The notes under the pieces: generated by a model | Database searches by the model: none | Told to the model about the DNA's origin: nothing | The model's input: only the letters and a program-made list of their open reading frames with translations | Origin: a virus | Lineage: Duplodnaviria > Caudoviricetes | Direction: 5' to 3' (one strand) | Virus record (IMG/VR): IMGVR_UViG_3300017722_005389 | DNA: 64,000 nucleotides | Shown here: positions 12,050-38,771 of the stretch, piece after piece | Position numbering within the stretch: position 1 is the stretch's first letter | Layout: each line of letters begins with the position of its first letter | Translations under genes and position numbers: made by a program

Positions 12050-12420
12050 AATGTGTATACGAAATTTATATCATATCTCCAATATACGAAGATTCAAACG
12101 TCCCAGTCCAGGTTCAAAAGAACGTATATTCAATTTTCTTTTGAAAAAGATCAGGTTTCTCATGAAAATGTGAGTGTCCAAGGTCAAATTTCGGCTGTCC
12201 AGGGACCAGAAATGACCAAAAAGTGTCAAAAAACACGGTGTTTTACCAAAAAATACAACAAAAACGTTCAATTGGATGACCATAAATTGCATAAGTGATT
12301 GATTTCCAATGAAATATTAAATTTCAAAGGAAAAAAGTGTCAAAAAACACGGTGTTTTACCAAAAATGTTCAAATGAATCAGCCCTGAAACGTTCAAAAG
12401 AACGATCTCAGGGCTGAGGG
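12050..12420. repeat. Non-coding repeat locus with TATACG motifs and a duplicated 35-bp palindrome-containing unit
   Basis: aaaaagtgtcaaaaaacacggtgttttaccaaaaa at 12218-12252 and 12332-12366; aatatacgaagatt shared with 34026 and 39090. Confidence 0.7.
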
Positions 12421-12605
12421 AATTTAAAATTTTTCAAAAGGAAGTCTACTAAGCTTTCTTTTGAATAAAATGTTTGTTTAATTTTCTTAAAATGGACTGT
12501 AGCGAAGTCTACATTCTTCCAAACGACAATTTTTGTGGTACCTCTTTTGAAGGTATACGGATTTTTATCTGGTTTGAAACCCCAGGCTAGCAAAGTTTGC
12601 TTCAT
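12408..12605 (-). CDS. Hypothetical protein
   Basis: Start moved to MKQTLL. Confidence 0.5.
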   Translation of the reverse strand: MKQTLLAWGFKPDKNPYTFKRGTTKIVVWKNVDFATVHFKKIKQTFYSKESLVDFLLKNFKFPQP

Positions 12606-12956
12606 AAGATATACTAAAAATTTTCTAAAGGAGGTAATGTATATGTTCAATAGTAGCAATATACGTAAAGTACTGAACTTTGGCACTGATTGCGACCTGA
12701 GCCTTCACTCAGGGTACAGCAAAGGTGGGAAGCATTTTTGAGAAAACCAAATTTTTTTGGAACTTTAACAAAAAATATTTTTGGTATTAGAATATGTTCA
12801 ATATACGAAAATTTCGATTTAGTGTTGGGTTGGATTACAAACCCCCAACTTTACAGTTTAGCCTCCGATAGTATCAAAGGTACGACTTTCTTCTGACATT
12901 TCATAATTTTTCTTAAGAAAATTTCAGTTTCTTTATATTTATTTTAAAAGCAGGCA

Positions 12957-14200: not shown

Positions 14201-14914
14201 TTATCTTATTTCTTGGTGTTTGTATAGAGTGAGAGCAAGTTCCCAGTTGTTTTCTGCTATATCTATTAGTTTATCAATTGTTTCTTTGTCTTTTTTCACA
14301 CGTCTTAATTTTTTAAAGTAATAAGCCATCATTTCGCCTGGATCCGCTACAATAGTCAAATTACGTTCTCTTGCTTCTTTAAATTCAAATGCAGATTTTA
14401 TTACGTAATCAGAAAAAAAGTAATTTTTTACGCTTAATTTAACTTCCCCTGTTGTAAAGAAATATTTAGCTTCATTAGCAGTTAATTTATAGTAGGTTTC
14501 ATCAGAATTTTCAGATTTTATCAAATTATCTTCAAAAGTCCTAAGAATTTTATCATATGATAGTAGATCCCCACTAGGATTGAAAATACTATCAGTTGAG
14601 CGTTTAAATCCATTACTACCAACTTTTTCAGAATATATTTTTTCATATTCTTCTTTAGTTTTTATCTCATTTAATTCATCCCAAGAAATATTATTTAAAG
14701 GCATACCAAAATAAAAACCCCATTTTATTTCAACGCCATTTTTATTTACAAATACACCTATACCATCAGGTTTTCCTTTTTCAATATTTCCTGTAAATTT
14801 TCCTCCTTCATAAGGGAAATCTTTAAAAAAAAACTCATTCAATATTTTTTTGTTTTGTTCTTCTTTGATAATTGCTTTTACAATTTGTCTGAGTTCGCTT
14901 AATTTGATTTTCAT
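14201..14914 (-). CDS. Leader-bearing protein with a MORN-like segment
   Basis: Same leader DNA as 13870; YEGGKFTGNIEKGKPDGIG. Confidence 0.7.
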   Translation of the reverse strand: MKIKLSELRQIVKAIIKEEQNKKILNEFFFKDFPYEGGKFTGNIEKGKPDGIGVFVNKNGVEIKWGFYFGMPLNNISWDELNEIKTKEEYEKIYSEKVGSNGFKRSTDSIFNPSGDLLSYDKILRTFEDNLIKSENSDETYYKLTANEAKYFFTTGEVKLSVKNYFFSDYVIKSAFEFKEARERNLTIVADPGEMMAYYFKKLRRVKKDKETIDKLIDIAENNWELALTLYKHQEIR

Positions 14915-15033
14915 GAAATTTTATTATAAATATTCTCTAAAGAAAGTTTTAAAATTTCTTCAGAAAAATTTGGAAATGCCAAAAGAAAGTGAGACTTTTG
15001 TTCCCATTAAATCACTGTTAAAACATTTGACTT

Positions 15034-15291
15034 ATGAAATCTGAGATTATTGAAAATCTTTCTAAAGAAATCAGAGTACTTTCTTCTGATGAAGTTGAGG
15101 CTGAAAAAGCTGTTTTTATGTTAGAGCGCAGCATCATGGTTTTTAATATGGACTCCAATAAGGATGCTTTGGTTGAGTATGTTAAACGCCAGCTTGATAC
15201 ACACAGAAAAGGTGCAACCTGGTATGCAGAACATTATGTATTAGCTGGTGAATCATTTTTAAAATACGTTTCTCATGGCGAAAATATATAG
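15034..15291 (+). CDS. Hypothetical early protein
   Basis: ORF downstream of a tttg...gacttttg promoter-like site. Confidence 0.75.
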   Translation: MKSEIIENLSKEIRVLSSDEVEAEKAVFMLERSIMVFNMDSNKDALVEYVKRQLDTHRKGATWYAEHYVLAGESFLKYVSHGENI

Positions 15292-23111: not shown

Positions 23112-23207
23112 AGCTGTAAGTGTTTAAATAGTGAATTAAAGATAGTGTAAAATTACAAAAGAAATCTCGAACTTCCAAATGAAATCCGAAATTTCTTTTG
23201 AAATAAA

Positions 23208-23660
23208 TTAAAATACTTTTGAGTAATCTTCTTTGTTAAAGAGTTTTATAATATCTCTCAATACATCTGTATAATTCTCAAGAGGAATGTTTATACTAAA
23301 TTCAACGTAACCATGCCCAGTACCATCCCCTAAAAAGTTTTTATCTGCTTTTGAGGTTTCTTTATACTTTTCATATAACTCTCCTAAGCTAATAAATTGA
23401 GTGCTTTCTCTATAACCTAATACTTTCATTTTAAACTTAACAGAATCCTTTGTAGCGTAAAATGAAGGCACTTCATATCTTTGACCTATTTTGCCTAAAT
23501 GAATAGTGCAATAGGAATTGTAGTCGTGTACTTCAACATTTATTCTAAATACATTTGAGAGGTCATTTGCTAATGTTTTTGCAAATGCTTTGTTTCTTTT
23601 AACGTTATCAATTTCGGTTCTTTCAGAATCCAACATTGCTTGAAGAAATAAGTTTTCCAT
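23208..23660 (-). CDS. Hypothetical protein, tandem paralog A
   Basis: MENLFLQAM..SERTEIDN shared with 23781. Confidence 0.85.
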   Translation of the reverse strand: MENLFLQAMLDSERTEIDNVKRNKAFAKTLANDLSNVFRINVEVHDYNSYCTIHLGKIGQRYEVPSFYATKDSVKFKMKVLGYRESTQFISLGELYEKYKETSKADKNFLGDGTGHGYVEFSINIPLENYTDVLRDIIKLFNKEDYSKVF

Positions 23661-23780
23661 AATAGTATAAATTTTAATAGTGAATTAAAGATAGTGTAAA
23701 ATTACAAAAGAAATCTTGAACTTCCAAATAAAATTCAAGATTTCTTTTGTGTAAACCCAAAATTTTTATTTTGAAATAAT

Positions 23781-24239
23781 TTAAAATACTTTGGCGTATC
23801 TATTTAATTTAAACAATGATAGAATATCCTTTAGAACATCATCATAATTCTGAAGGGGAATTTGTATTCTAAACGTAACGTTACCATGCCCACTTTTCTC
23901 ATTTAAGAAATTATTATCTGCTGTAGCTGAATCTTTATATTTCTCATATAAATCTCCTAACAGCCTTCCAAAAAGTTGCGACTCACCTCTATACCCCAAT
24001 ACATTCATATTGAATATGACACCATCTTTTTTAGCAATAAAGTATGGGCAATTAAATCTTTGACTCATTGTTCCAACATAAATTTGTGAAGAATCAATAG
24101 AATCACTGATTTGCAAATTTATTTGAAATACTTTCGAAAGGTCATTTGCTAATTTTCTTGCGAAATCTTTGTTTGCTTTAATGTTATCAATTTCAGTTCT
24201 TTCAGAAATTGGCATTGCTTGAAGAAATAAGTTTTCCAT
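23781..24239 (-). CDS. Hypothetical protein, tandem paralog B
   Basis: Colinear similarity to 23208 along its whole length. Confidence 0.85.
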   Translation of the reverse strand: MENLFLQAMPISERTEIDNIKANKDFARKLANDLSKVFQINLQISDSIDSSQIYVGTMSQRFNCPYFIAKKDGVIFNMNVLGYRGESQLFGRLLGDLYEKYKDSATADNNFLNEKSGHGNVTFRIQIPLQNYDDVLKDILSLFKLNRYAKVF

Positions 24240-24366
24240 AATAGTATAAATTTTAATAGTGAAATAAATAGAATGTAAAATTACAAAAGAAACTCCAAAC
24301 TTCCAAATAAAATTCAGAGTTTCTTTTGTGTAAACCCAAAATTTTTATTTTGAAATAATTTAAAAG

Positions 24367-24676: not shown

Positions 24677-24910
24677 TTAACGAATTCCTTTATTCCATCG
24701 ACCTCGGAATAATCTGCCATTTTCTTTATCATTATTATTATAAGCATAAAACAAATCACCATAATGTGATGTAGATAATAAATCTACATTATCATAAACG
24801 GATAAATCCACCTCTTTTTCAGGGTAATACCAATCGGTATTATTTTTTAACCAACCCCAACATTCGATAGTTATTTTACCATTTTCCATAAAATCAGAAA
24901 AACTTTGCAT
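24677..24910 (-). CDS. Hypothetical protein
   Basis: 77-aa cassette gene. Confidence 0.7.
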   Translation of the reverse strand: MQSFSDFMENGKITIECWGWLKNNTDWYYPEKEVDLSVYDNVDLLSTSHYGDLFYAYNNNDKENGRLFRGRWNKGIR

Positions 24911-25011
24911 AAAATAAATTTTAATAAGTGAATTAAATATTTGACCCTACAAAGATATGCAAAGCAATTCACATTTCCAAATGAAATCCAAGATTTCTTT
25001 TGAAATAATTT

Positions 25012-25851
25012 TCAATAAATTTCATCTAAGTCGATTCCGTGAGTTTCATACCACCATTCTTTTGACTTATTAGAATGTTTATCCTTTAATCTGTTATATC
25101 GTTCCAAAATTTTGTTTTGGCGTTCAATTTCATTATTAAAAAACTCATGTTCTAATACTTCTCTACACTTGTATATTTCACGAAGTATTTTACGTAAAAC
25201 ATAACCTTGTTTTAGATTAGAGGGTATATAACCACTTTCTATAATTTTTAGAGCCGTATCTTTGAGTGTTTCAACTTTATCTATTTTTTTACCATTGACA
25301 AACATTTCAAGTCTTTCAAGCCCAAATCCAACATCAATACAATTATCAAGTGGGTTGACAATATTACCAATTTCAATACCATCAACAAAAAATTCTGTAC
25401 AATAACCTCCTATTTCACCATCGCTCCAATGACAGTTTTCATCGTCTACTATTACATCCTCAATGCCCAGTTGATTATAATATCCAAGCCACTCTTTTCT
25501 GTCACTATGAATTGTAACATAATCGGGTGTAATACCTATTTTTTTTAAGAATGTAACCCAAAAGATAATAGTATCTTCAATAGACATCTCTCTGAATGAG
25601 AATAACCCAATCATATTAAAATAGAGCAAATGGGATAAATCGCCTATTTCTTCAAAGTCATTCATTCGAATACAAGCTTGAACATTTGAAACAGTATTTT
25701 TATATTCGCTATCTTTGAATTGACATTTGAATTTTTGCATTCCTGCAGGGCAAAACAAAGTTGTATTGTCATAAGGATTTACTTTGTTTTCAATGCTAAA
25801 GAAGATATTTTTTTCTTCGCAAAATTTTTGGTATTCTTCAATAATATTCAT
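25012..25851 (-). CDS. alaS: Minimal alanyl-tRNA synthetase-like protein (catalytic core only)
   Basis: TLFCPAGMQKFK, QACIR, HLLYFNMIGLFSF, IEIGNIV, IDVGFGLERL, PSNLKQGYVLRKILR; 279 aa, no editing or C-Ala domains. Confidence 0.9.
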   Translation of the reverse strand: MNIIEEYQKFCEEKNIFFSIENKVNPYDNTTLFCPAGMQKFKCQFKDSEYKNTVSNVQACIRMNDFEEIGDLSHLLYFNMIGLFSFREMSIEDTIIFWVTFLKKIGITPDYVTIHSDRKEWLGYYNQLGIEDVIVDDENCHWSDGEIGGYCTEFFVDGIEIGNIVNPLDNCIDVGFGLERLEMFVNGKKIDKVETLKDTALKIIESGYIPSNLKQGYVLRKILREIYKCREVLEHEFFNNEIERQNKILERYNRLKDKHSNKSKEWWYETHGIDLDEIY

Positions 25852-25950
25852 AAAATAAAATTTAATAAGTGAATTAAATATTTGACCCTACAAAGATATG
25901 CAAAGCAATTCACATTTCCAAAAGAAATGCAAAATTATTTCAAAAGAATT

Positions 25951-37787: not shown

Positions 37788-38771
37788 TTATTCTGCTTCT
37801 GCTTCGGTTGGTTCAACTGCTGTTGCCAATGAACGTCCAAGTATCAGTTCAACTGCTTTTTTTGCCTCGTTGACTGCCTTGAATATCCACTTAGGCTCAC
37901 TTTCAAGTTTCGATATCCAACCGTTCAGATATGCTTGAGAGTTTTGAACGTTCATTTGGATGCCTGACAACTCGCAAAGCATTCCTGCGCCTATTTCGGC
38001 TATCAGTTCTTCATAGCTGTACTGATGACTACCAAAGCGGTCAAATTGCGCTACACCTTGTCGGTTCAATTTGTCCATGTTACCAGTGCTATGCACCAAT
38101 TCATGGAATAGGGTTTGATAGTAAGCATCGGAACTTACAAATTGTCCAATACTCGGCATATACAATATGTTAAATTGTGGGCTGTATGCAGCACTATTCG
38201 ATTCAATGATTTTGGGGCAATTTGCATAGCCTTTCAAGATGCTTTCGCCATTGTCCAAAATTGGGTTGTTTTTCGCTTCGGGAATGTACTTAGACATATC
38301 CCAATTTAAATGGTCTATTGAAAATACCACAAACCCTTTTACAGTTGGAAAACTGTATGTCTTTTTTTCGCCATTGCTGTCCAAGATAGGATTGCCATTG
38401 GCATCTTTGCATTCCTTTGTTATCGGTGTTACTCGAATAAGGTGCAGACCTTTCGCACCCTTTTTAATTGGGAAAGGTACAGCAGCACCTTTGCTATCGA
38501 CATAACCGTTACCTTGCTTTTTGTAGCCAAGCTTTTTTGCAGCACCTGCAACTGTAGCATAGTGCGCTTGAACGCCATACATAGATGCATGGAGATTCGC
38601 CCAAAATGCATTTGAACCTGTGTATACGCTGTCATAAGCTACATTGCCTACAATAGATGTTATCCAAGGCTTTTGCCATCCGACAATCCCTTGTTTCAAA
38701 CCGTTAATGAATAGTTCTGTAATCTTAGCTTCAACAGAAGCTTCGACATTAGCATTTTTAGTGTACGCCAT
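37788..38771 (-). CDS. ardC: ArdC-like antirestriction protein (ssDNA-binding domain plus zincin domain)
   Basis: WQKPW, YTGSNA, YYQTLFHELVHSTG, YSYEELIAEIGA, YLNGW. Confidence 0.9.
   Translation of the reverse strand: MAYTKNANVEASVEAKITELFINGLKQGIVGWQKPWITSIVGNVAYDSVYTGSNAFWANLHASMYGVQAHYATVAGAAKKLGYKKQGNGYVDSKGAAVPFPIKKGAKGLHLIRVTPITKECKDANGNPILDSNGEKKTYSFPTVKGFVVFSIDHLNWDMSKYIPEAKNNPILDNGESILKGYANCPKIIESNSAAYSPQFNILYMPSIGQFVSSDAYYQTLFHELVHSTGNMDKLNRQGVAQFDRFGSHQYSYEELIAEIGAGMLCELSGIQMNVQNSQAYLNGWISKLESEPKWIFKAVNEAKKAVELILGRSLATAVEPTEAEAE

What the first reader, a model, noticed from the sequence alone, without database searches (positions are those of the whole stretch)
25012..25851. Stand-alone 279-aa mini-AlaRS in an early cassette
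Seen: class II motifs 1-3 of AlaRS and the start of the helical domain, with its own early promoter. Established: cellular AlaRS is about 870 aa; fragments shorter than roughly 460 aa lose efficient tRNA charging but can still activate alanine; the editing domain lies further C-terminal. Inference: unlikely to be a plain housekeeping replacement. It may charge non-standard acceptors (cleaved tRNAs, tRNA mimics, proteins), mischarge Ser/Gly, or make Ap4A-type signals during takeover.
Basis: partly seen in the sequence, partly recalled or inferred. Interest (0 to 1): 0.7.

Follow-up and report, generated by a model that had tools for sequence, protein, structure and literature searches.

The report
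Condensed 279-aa alanyl-tRNA synthetase of phages
A jumbo-phage gene encodes a 279-residue, internally shortened alanyl-tRNA synthetase with an intact active site and a trimmed tRNA-reading domain; it belongs to a large uncharacterised family in huge phages and Rhizobium, and if it charges tRNA it would be far smaller than any AlaRS shown to do so.

Summary
The ORF is real: 25012-25851, minus strand, 279 aa, Pfam tRNA-synt_2c at 1.3e-20. It is not a truncated AlaRS. All 279 residues superpose on E. coli AlaRS residues 2-409 (Z 23.8), with about 120 residues of internal loops and helices deleted. No editing or C-Ala domain is present.

Ten adenylation and alanine-pocket residues are invariant in 145 family members. 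The loop that reads G3:U70 (E. coli D400-T-x-G403) is largely kept.

The family has about 1000 proteins of 275-300 aa, forms one clade and has no fused or longer forms. It occurs in huge phages, where it is the only AlaRS homolog in five genomes of 482-635 kb. It also occurs as a stand-alone gene in Rhizobiaceae, which RefSeq labels 'alanine--tRNA ligase-related protein'.

In phages it often sits inside co-oriented tRNA arrays, and tRNA-Ala is enriched beside it. Those tRNA-Ala genes keep G3:U70 and A73.

Best reading (about 0.55): a minimal, editing-free AlaRS that charges tRNA-Ala through the acceptor stem. This is untested biochemically.

Many homologs, though not the window's, carry a conserved 6-codon leader ending in an Ala codon, out of frame with the enzyme. 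This suggests recoding.

The scan noted this same stretch before, and a 209-aa AlaRS-like fragment in another genome.

The parts
25012..25851 (-). Whole ORF of the condensed AlaRS (279 aa plus stop), protein P0001
   Evidence: AF2 model pLDDT 92.9, pTM 0.86; all 279 residues align to E. coli AlaRS 2-409, Z 23.8, rmsd 3.8
25282..25851 (-). Class II catalytic core (residues 1 to about 190), shortened by loop deletions relative to E. coli (GGKH 72-75; 187-206; 216-233)
   Evidence: HisRS and GlyQ structures also match this part only (Z up to 15.8)
25594..25680 (-). Motif 2 region (residues 58-86) with the invariant Arg62 (E. coli R69 in the literature, R70 counting Met1)
   Evidence: R invariant in 145/145
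25303..25341 (-). Motif 3 / alanine pocket (residues 171-183, CIDVGFGLERLEM): Asp173 = E. coli D235, Gly175 = G237, plus the motif-3 Arg180
   Evidence: all invariant in 145/145
25015..25281 (-). Trimmed tRNA-recognition (Mid/ATL) domain, residues 191-279, four helices. E. coli segments 258-284, 334-358, 381-389 and 411-461 are absent
   Evidence: only AlaRS structures cover this part
25180..25224 (-). PSNLKQGYVLRKILR helix (residues 210-224); Asn212 = E. coli N303, the major-groove reader of U70
   Evidence: role of N303 from PMC6055181
25033..25056 (-). WWYETHGI loop (residues 266-273), equivalent to E. coli 397-404. Glu269 stands at D400; Thr270 and Gly272 correspond to T401 and G403
   Evidence: D/E in 133/145, T in 141/145, G in 143/145; role from PMC6055181
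25891..25922 (-). Promoter-like site TTTG-N20-TATCTTTG (Bacteroidota-type -33/-7), 40 nt upstream of the ATG
   Evidence: 20 matches in the window against 3.2 expected, mostly on the coding strand of the minus-strand gene block
24950..24981 (-). Identical promoter-like site of the next cassette (77-aa ORF 24677-24910); it marks the 3' boundary of the AlaRS cassette
   Evidence: identical 28-mer at 24940-24967 and 25881-25908

Best explanation
The gene encodes a minimal, monomeric, editing-free alanyl-tRNA synthetase. The class II core makes alanyl-adenylate from alanine and ATP. [quoted passage not shown] It keeps the first recognition helix and the loop that reads the G3:U70 minor groove in E. 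coli. The enzyme would then alanylate host and/or phage tRNA-Ala during infection, without proofreading. Shown here: homology, fold, invariance of the active site, retention of the recognition loop, absence of other AlaRS parts, and genomic linkage to tRNA-Ala genes in relatives. Inferred: that tRNA is the acceptor, that G3:U70 is read, and that expression is early from a host-type promoter.
For: (1) Active site. R69, W170, E183, E209, N212, V214, D235, G237, G239 and the motif-3 Arg (E. coli literature numbering) are each invariant in 145/145 family members, 73 phage and 72 cellular (mapping). (2) Fold. The AF2 model has pLDDT 92.9. All 279 residues align to E. coli AlaRS 2-409 (Z 23.8) and to A. 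fulgidus AlaRS 60-458 from the tRNA complex (Z 19.1). GlyQ and HisRS cover only residues 1 to about 205. (3) tRNA-reading elements. At E. coli D400 the family has D or E in 133/145, T401 is kept in 141/145 and G403 in 143/145. PMC6055181 shows D400 is the positive G3:U70 reader and that the Y399/G403 backbone contacts U70. N303 is only a negative determinant there, and N303A is more active. (4) E. coli 368N cannot charge tRNA and residues 369-442 are needed (PMC11392972). The mini form reaches the equivalent of residue 410. (5) Genomic linkage. Of 51 de-duplicated phage loci, 28 have tRNA genes within 10 kb and 20 within 1.5 kb. 264 of 271 flanking tRNAs are co-oriented with the gene. tRNA-Ala is 14/73 of tRNAs within 1.5 kb against 13/198 farther away (Fisher OR 3.4, p 0.005). 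25 of 27 well-formed phage tRNA-Ala have G3:U70 and A73, against 2 of 261 other tRNAs with G3:U70. In the 634-kb phage LR745206.1, the only tRNA-Ala found among its tRNA genes lies 402 nt downstream of the gene; 61 tRNA matches were found and the main arrays were typed. (6) In five huge-phage genomes (four rated 97-100% complete) the mini form is the only PF01411 match. (7) Precedents. TuAlaRS (461 aa, no editing or C-Ala) charges tRNA-Ala and a microhelix and rescues yeast (PMC10036535). AlaRS needs no dimer, and a 4-bp G3:U70 tetraloop is a substrate (PMC8583063).
Against: No biochemical data exist. The protein lacks the equivalents of E. coli 411-442, part of the smallest E. coli fragment reported active (442N, PMC11392972). 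It also lacks the GGKH loop after motif 2, whose Lys73 was, from my memory of older cross-linking work, near the tRNA 3' end. The window itself has no tRNA gene in 64 kb, and 31 of 51 phage clusters have none within 1.5 kb. The D400 position is N, S, G, A, Q or T in about 10% of phage members. Rhizobiaceae keep the gene alongside a canonical alaS, where a second, non-editing AlaRS is not obviously useful. That leaves room for a different acceptor.
Confidence: 0.55

Rival explanations
1. An alanine-adenylating ligase that has kept the AlaRS scaffold but transfers alanine to a non-tRNA acceptor (small molecule, carrier or other protein, cell-wall or nucleic-acid modification). Known parallels, from my own knowledge, are synthetase paralogs such as EpmA/PoxA, AsnA and the amino acid:carrier-protein ligases.
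For: Active-site invariance only demands adenylation. The cellular copies are stand-alone genes among metabolic and transport genes in Rhizobium, alongside a normal alaS. The window has no tRNA genes. About 170 residues of the smallest experimentally active E. coli fragment are missing.
Against: The AlaRS-specific tRNA-recognition helix and the D400-T-x-G loop are conserved, which a non-tRNA enzyme would not need. The gene lies within co-oriented tRNA arrays with tRNA-Ala enriched beside it. No conserved neighbouring carrier or partner gene appears in 160 loci.
Confidence: 0.2
2. It charges tRNA-Ala, but only together with a separately encoded tRNA-binding protein that replaces C-Ala, such as a GatB/YqeY-domain protein (a split or trans-assisted synthetase).
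For: In locus L010 a 239-aa GatB_Yqey protein overlaps the start of the homolog by 4 nt, with PTH2 and MiaE-like genes nearby. GatB_Yqey proteins occur in 3-4 of 5 huge-phage genomes.
Against: The adjacency was seen in one locus only. In the five genomes the GatB_Yqey genes lie far from the mini-AlaRS. No window neighbour recurs in any other locus. No tRNA_SAD (editing) domain is present in the five genomes, and no longer or fused forms were found in the protein database. TuAlaRS and E. coli 442N need no such helper.
Confidence: 0.1
3. An Ala-tRNA-Ala-dependent aminoacyl transferase of the AcmF type, which uses charged tRNA as donor rather than making it.
For: AcmF is also a truncated AlaRS-like protein with only the aminoacylation and tRNA-recognition domains (PMC12945691). 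Linkage to tRNA-Ala genes would fit a tRNA-dependent enzyme as well.
Against: AcmF has lost most ATP- and alanine-activation residues (N to Q, D to E). Here the equivalent Asn and Asp and all ATP-binding residues are invariant in 145/145. There is no biosynthetic cluster context.
Confidence: 0.05

Closest known systems
Tupanvirus mini-AlaRS (TuAlaRS, 461 aa; PMC10036535)
   Same: Virus-encoded and stand-alone. It has catalytic plus tRNA-recognition domains only, with no editing or C-Ala domain, and motifs 1-3 are kept. In many family members, as in TuAlaRS, the canonical N/D G:U-reading pair is replaced.
   Different: The window protein is 182 residues shorter, through internal deletions and loss of the C-terminal helices of the recognition domain. 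It is of the bacterial/phage lineage, not eukaryote-derived. It forms its own clade with a long stem. No activity data exist.
E. coli AlaRS N-terminal fragments (368N inactive on tRNA; 442N/461N active; cited in PMC11392972)
   Same: Same fold over E. coli residues 2-409 (Z 23.8), same active-site residues, and the D400 loop is present as in 442N.
   Different: It is a natural protein, not an engineered one. It lacks about 120 internal residues and the equivalents of 411-442, including the GGKH loop.
Nanoarchaeum equitans AlaRS-alpha (split AlaRS; PMC11392972)
   Same: A small natural AlaRS piece able (weakly) to alanylate tRNA and minihelices by acceptor-end recognition.
   Different: AlaRS-alpha corresponds to E. 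coli 368N, lacks the D400 loop, and works with a beta subunit. No beta-like or editing-domain gene was found in five huge-phage genomes.
AcmF, AlaRS-like aminoacyl transferase of ascamycin biosynthesis (PMC12945691)
   Same: A truncated AlaRS-like architecture (aminoacylation plus tRNA-recognition domains).
   Different: AcmF has lost its adenylation residues and uses Ala-tRNA as donor. This family keeps every adenylation residue.
Bacterial GlyRS alpha subunit (GlyQ, about 290 aa)
   Same: Similar size, and the class II core most closely related to AlaRS (bioRxiv 10.1101/2023.05.29.542759).
   Different: GlyQ matches only residues 1 to about 205 (Z up to 15.6, against 24 for AlaRS). There was no hit to the GlyQ Pfam family in the scan. 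GlyQ needs GlyS for tRNA binding.

Membership tests
Class II AlaRS catalytic core (Pfam PF01411 tRNA-synt_2c) | Score above the Pfam gathering threshold | tested here: met
   73.9 bits against a cut-off of 30.3, E 1.3e-20
Class II AlaRS catalytic core (Pfam PF01411 tRNA-synt_2c) | ATP and alanine pocket residues (E. coli R69, W170, E183, E209, N212, V214, D235, G237, motif-3 Arg) | tested here: met
   All present in P0001 and invariant in 145/145 family members
Canonical full-length AlaRS (NCBIfam TIGR00344 equivalog) | Equivalog score at or above 457 bits | tested here: not met
   74 bits
Canonical full-length AlaRS (NCBIfam TIGR00344 equivalog) | Editing (tRNA_SAD) and C-Ala domains in the same polypeptide | tested here: not met
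   The protein ends at the equivalent of E. coli residue 410. No longer forms exist. No PF07973 match in five related huge-phage genomes.
Functional aminoacylation unit of AlaRS (as in E. coli 442N or TuAlaRS) | tRNA-recognition domain containing the G3:U70-reading loop (E. coli Y399-D400-T-x-G403) | tested here: met
   WWYETHGI aligns with LYDTYGFP. The family has D/E in 133/145, T in 141/145 and G in 143/145.
Functional aminoacylation unit of AlaRS (as in E. coli 442N or TuAlaRS) | Complete recognition domain (E. coli 250-442), including the C-terminal helices | tested here: not met
   E. coli 258-284, 334-358, 381-389 and everything after 410 have no counterpart
Functional aminoacylation unit of AlaRS (as in E. 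coli 442N or TuAlaRS) | Alanylation of tRNA-Ala or a microhelix | not testable with these tools
   Needs enzyme assays or complementation
AcmF-type Ala-tRNA-dependent transferase | Loss of adenylation residues (N to Q, D to E; PMC12945691) | tested here: not met
   Asn163 and Asp173 are retained and invariant
Bacterial GlyRS alpha subunit (GlyQ) | Best sequence and fold match is to GlyQ over its whole length | tested here: not met
   No GlyQ family in the Pfam scan at E up to 1. GlyQ chains give Z up to 15.6 over about 170 residues, against AlaRS Z 24 over 279.
Split AlaRS (N. equitans alpha/beta) | A separately encoded second AlaRS piece in the same genome | tested here: not met
   Only one PF01411 locus and no tRNA_SAD match in each of five huge-phage genomes. 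The window's own full genome was not available.

The most novel reading that the evidence does not exclude
The family is the smallest natural synthetase that still charges a tRNA: about 280 aa, catalytic core plus a minimal acceptor-stem latch. In the many members that carry the leader, its synthesis is switched on by shortage of its own product. A strongly SD-driven 6-codon leader (M-S/T-x-R-D-A-stop, or M-S/T-x-L-N-A-I/M-stop) pauses at an invariant Ala codon. The P-site tRNA-Asp/Asn then slips -1 (G|GAC to GGA, A|AAC to AAA) into the enzyme's frame. This would be an Ala-tRNA-Ala-sensing programmed frameshift, analogous in logic to prfB and antizyme.
Probability: 0.2. Interest if true: 0.9.

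Novelty: new variant of a known kind. Interest (0 to 1): 0.66.

Why it matters
AlaRS is the textbook case of tRNA recognition through the acceptor stem alone (the 'operational RNA code'). How small a synthetase can be and still charge RNA is a long-standing question, so far addressed with engineered fragments, urzymes and one 461-aa viral enzyme. Here nature offers a family of about 280 aa under strong purifying selection. It has about 1000 members in huge phages and in cultivable, genetically tractable Rhizobium, so the question becomes directly testable. If the enzyme is active, it shows which roughly 40% of the minimal E. coli aminoacylation unit is dispensable. It would also give a compact orthogonal-pair scaffold. 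It would explain how huge phages that carry tRNA-Ala genes keep them charged without proofreading. If it is not a tRNA-charging enzyme, it is a new alanine-transferring activity conserved from phages to rhizobia. The conserved out-of-frame leader ending in an Ala codon is a separate candidate for a new recoding or autoregulation device.

Tried and rejected
1. Simple truncation or pseudogene: rejected. The length is conserved in about 1000 homologs, there are no longer or fused forms at E up to 1e-20, and the model is high-confidence and compact.

2. Conserved adjacent partner: none. No neighbour of the window gene recurs in 160 loci. Rhizobium neighbours are conserved only among close species, in 10-19 of 66 loci.

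3. Co-variation between the enzyme's G:U-reading residues and linked tRNAs. Three loci (L058, L069, L106) pair N303 to H and D400 to N with a nearby 88-nt 'tRNA-Ala(AGC)' bearing U3:A70. Other members with D400 to N, S or G sit beside ordinary G3:U70 tRNA-Ala genes, so there is no general rule.

4. Termination-reinitiation as the sole explanation of the leader uORF: insufficient. The junction codon is CTG, TTG or ATA in most copies. It is CTA, TTA or GTA in at least 8 intact phage or cellular copies with no start nearby.

5. The megablast search of the neighbourhood against phage records found nothing. PHROGs gave only unnamed families.

The phage's own tRNA set and expression timing therefore could not be examined.

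8. Ap4A synthesis and protein acylation have no sequence signature that could be tested.

Full report
OBSERVATION. The ORF at 25012-25851 (minus strand, ATG start, 279 aa, protein P0001) exists exactly as reported. It matches Pfam tRNA-synt_2c (PF01411) at E 1.3e-20, 73.9 bits against a cut-off of 30.3. It scores only 74 bits on the full-length AlaRS equivalog TIGR00344, whose cut-off is 457. The best solved relatives by sequence are the catalytic fragments of A. aeolicus and E. coli AlaRS. They match in three collinear stretches: motifs 1-2, motif 3 (IDVGFGLER), and the helix PSNLKQGYVLRKILR.

ANATOMY. The C-terminal block WWYETHGI aligns with E. coli LYDTYGFP (397-404). An AlphaFold2 model built on 50 family members is confident (pLDDT 92.9, pTM 0.86).

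Foldseek places the model on the E. coli AlaRS catalytic fragment (E 3e-15, TM 0.78 on the query) with an alignment spanning about 400 columns. VIA-align puts all 279 residues on E. coli residues 2-409 (Z 23.8, rmsd 3.8) and on A. fulgidus AlaRS 60-458 from the tRNA complex (Z 19.1). HisRS and GlyQ cover only the core, residues 1 to about 205 (Z up to 15.8).

Relative to E. coli, the protein lacks several segments: GGKH 72-75, 187-206, 216-233, 258-284, 334-358, 381-389, and everything after 410. That is 170 residues of the 461-residue fragment. So this is a condensed aminoacylation unit, made of the core plus a four-helix remnant of the tRNA-recognition (Mid/'ATL') domain. It is not an N-terminal truncation.

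ACTIVE SITE AND tRNA-READING RESIDUES. In 145 family sequences (73 from viral contigs, 72 from genomes), ten positions are each invariant. They are the equivalents of E. coli R69, W170, E183, E209, N212, V214, D235, G237 and G239, plus the motif-3 Arg.

At the position of E. coli D400 the family has Asp in 125 and Glu in 8 of 145; the window protein has Glu269. T401 is kept in 141/145 and G403 in 143/145. N303 is Asn in 97/145, including the window protein.

Chong et al. (PMC6055181) showed that D400 is the positive reader of G3:U70. They also showed that the Y399/D400/G403 backbone holds the U70 ribose. N303 only repels G3:C70 competitors, and N303A is more active. According to PMC11392972, E. 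coli 368N cannot charge tRNA, residues 369-442 are needed, and 442N is the smallest active E. coli fragment. The mini form keeps the critical loop but not the equivalents of 411-442.

THE FAMILY. A length-matched search found 977 relatives. The best 120 are 190-311 aa long (most 274-300) and at least 58% identical, on contigs up to 687 kb. An exhaustive HMMER search of 1.84 billion cluster representatives gave 45 clusters at E up to 1e-30, almost all 275-330 aa. Full-length AlaRS appear only from about 1e-15. No longer or fused form exists at E up to 1e-20.

In a maximum-likelihood tree the family is one clade (SH-aLRT 100, stem length 1.5), apart from canonical AlaRS and from 400-576-aa 'mid-size' AlaRS. 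The published natural mini-AlaRS, TuAlaRS, has 461 aa (PMC10036535). I found no paper describing a form of about 280 aa.

WHERE IT OCCURS. The window's protein is found on JGI metagenome contigs up to 272 kb. The best GenBank phage hit is the 634,780-bp 'uncultured phage' LR745206.1, at 57% identity and the same length. Eighty IMG/VR viral loci carry homologs, on contigs up to 608 kb.

The window context is phage-like: GP88-family proteins, an ArdC-N/zincin protein, a ParB-like protein, a DEAD helicase and a holin. Its promoter-like motifs are of the Bacteroidota type. Its nearest relative is a 3.4-kb contig binned as Flavobacterium. A Bacteroidota host is therefore likely, though this is inference.

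Unexpectedly, 221 stretches in species-representative bacterial genomes also encode the family. They are mostly Rhizobium, Neorhizobium, Phyllobacterium, Inquilinus and Caulobacteraceae, on chromosomes and plasmids. 89 Rhizobium plasmids in PLSDB carry it, annotated 'alanine--tRNA ligase-related protein'.

There it sits among ordinary genes (sialidase-like, Fe-ADH, PdxA, ABC transporter, AraC regulator; a RES/Xre toxin-antitoxin pair is adjacent in one plasmid). It is not in a prophage, and no neighbour is conserved beyond close species. In the tree the Rhizobiaceae clade is nested within phage sequences. That suggests, but does not prove, capture from a phage.

LINK TO tRNA-Ala. In LR745206.1 the gene lies within a tRNA array. 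A tRNA-Gly(GCC) lies 184 nt downstream and a tRNA-Ala(UGC) 402 nt downstream. That tRNA-Ala is the only one found among the tRNAs typed in this record. It has G1:C72, G2:C71, G3:U70 and A73.

86 phage loci were reduced to 51 clusters at 90% protein identity. Of these, 28 have tRNA genes within 10 kb and 20 within 1.5 kb, and 9 of those 20 include a tRNA-Ala. 264 of 271 flanking tRNAs are on the gene's strand. tRNA-Ala is 14/73 of the tRNAs within 1.5 kb against 13/198 beyond (Fisher OR 3.4, p 0.005).

25 of 27 well-paired tRNA-Ala have G3:U70 plus A73, against 2 of 261 other tRNAs with G3:U70. Loci are not fully independent, so the p-value is indicative only.

In five huge-phage genomes (482-635 kb, four rated 97-100% complete), the mini form is the sole PF01411 match and no tRNA_SAD editing domain is present. 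The window itself has no tRNA gene in its 64 kb.

MECHANISM. The most economical reading is a bona fide but minimal AlaRS. It would adenylate alanine in an unchanged pocket, dock the acceptor stem through the retained helix and D400-type loop, and transfer alanine to A76. It would have no proofreading, so Ser- and Gly-tRNA-Ala would have to be cleared by host factors or tolerated during a short infection.

AlaRS is suited to such reduction. It needs no dimer, ignores the anticodon, and accepts a 4-bp G3:U70 tetraloop (PMC8583063). I put this reading at about 0.55.

The rivals are as follows. A non-tRNA acceptor is supported mainly by the cellular copies that coexist with alaS (0.2). A trans tRNA-binding helper rests on a GatB_Yqey gene overlapping the homolog's start in one locus, L010; such genes are not adjacent elsewhere (0.1). 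An AcmF-like transferase is disfavoured because AcmF lost the adenylation residues that are invariant here (0.05).

PROMOTER AND CASSETTE. Forty nt upstream of the ATG lies TTTG-N20-TATCTTTG (25891-25922, minus strand). The identical element precedes the next small gene (24950-24981). The two copies share an identical 28-mer core.

The pattern TTTG-N19-21-TAnnTTTG occurs 20 times in the window against 3.2 expected, mostly on the minus strand in the 21-39 kb gene block. Long hairpin terminator-like repeats separate neighbouring cassettes. This supports 'own promoter'. Because the motif is of host type, early expression is plausible, but it was not tested.

A SECOND FINDING IN RELATIVES. 73 of 75 cellular copies and at least 11 phage copies from both deep clades lack any in-frame ATG, GTG or TTG before the motif-1 region. 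Instead, a strong SD (AGGAGG) is followed at 5 nt by an ATG in another frame. That ATG opens a 4-7-codon ORF, M-S/T-x-R-D-A-stop or M-S/T-x-L-N-A-(I/M)-stop, whose stop overlaps the enzyme's frame.

Synonymous changes in leader codon 2 (TCA, TCC, TCG) are non-synonymous in the enzyme's frame. The leader frame is therefore the translated one upstream. RefSeq starts the Rhizobium protein at the CTG that overlaps the TGA.

Reinitiation would explain the CTG, TTG and ATA junctions. It does not explain the intact copies with CTA, TTA or GTA junctions and no nearby start; L114 was checked directly.

Three features hold throughout. An Ala codon (GCN) always follows the Asp/Asn codon. The base before that codon co-varies with it (G|GAC, A|AAC). 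The next enzyme-frame codon is always CGC.

These features fit a -1 slip of the P-site tRNA while the Ala codon waits in the A site. That would make synthesis respond to Ala-tRNA-Ala supply. This is inference only, and the window's own gene has a plain ATG and no leader.

VERDICT. Its preference for exotic functions is not supported by the new evidence, though it is not excluded either.

The family is annotated in RefSeq only as a 'related protein' and appears uncharacterised. I class it as a new, much smaller variant of a known kind (AlaRS / viral mini-AlaRS), with interest 0.66.

Noticed in passing
L127:4973-5009, L171:4973-5009, L114:9953-9988 and about 80 other homolog loci (not in the window): A conserved leader: SD-ATG opens a 4-7-codon ORF (M-S/T-x-R-D-A-stop, or ..L-N-A-I/M-stop) out of frame with the mini-AlaRS, which has no canonical in-frame start. 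Junction codons are CTG, TTG or ATA, but also CTA, TTA and GTA. The covariation G|GAC versus A|AAC, the invariant Ala codon and the invariant CGC suggest a -1 frameshift or another recoding event rather than plain reinitiation.
   Followed up: partly
window 23156-23200, 23705-23749, 24283-24329 and 21-39 kb generally: Repeated long hairpins (20 bp, terminator-like) directly followed by TTTG..TAnnTTTG promoter-like boxes separate many small minus-strand genes. This forms an array of monocistronic cassettes.
   Followed up: partly
L007:4380-5012: A 537-kb phage contig that carries a mini-AlaRS homolog also encodes a 210-aa protein with HisRS / class IIa core Pfam hits. This may be a second miniaturised synthetase-like gene.
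   Followed up: no
L010:9285-10004 and 12316-12678, 14699-15235: In one 354-kb contig a GatB_Yqey-domain protein overlaps the start of the mini-AlaRS homolog by 4 nt. PTH2 (peptidyl-tRNA hydrolase) and a faint MiaE-like gene lie within 5 kb, forming a small translation-related cluster.
   Followed up: partly
L058:9341-9428 (also L069, L106): An 88-nt tRNA-like gene called tRNA-Ala(AGC), with U3:A70 and A73, lies about 575 nt upstream of mini-AlaRS variants that have His at N303 and Asn at D400. It could be an unusual pair or a mis-called tRNA.
   Followed up: partly
L121 (two genes 536 and 637 nt upstream of the homolog); also L018:1108-1181: Two amber-suppressor-like tRNA(CUA) genes lie next to the homolog in L121. 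Separately, a tRNA with a 4-base anticodon call occurs in LR745206.1 (L018). These may be signs of stop-codon recoding in related huge phages.
   Followed up: no
window 37788-38771 (-): ArdC-N plus zincin-like metallopeptidase (MPTase-PolyVal): an anti-restriction-type protein in the same minus-strand block.
   Followed up: no
L203:2923-3833: In Rhizobium leguminosarum plasmid pRLN4 a RES-family NAD+ phosphorylase / Xre antitoxin pair lies immediately upstream of, and divergent from, the mini-AlaRS homolog.
   Followed up: no
window 23208-23660 and 23781-24239 (-): Two adjacent paralogous 150/152-aa ORFs with near-identical N-termini (MENLFLQAM..) and no Pfam match, each in its own hairpin-promoter cassette.
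   Followed up: no
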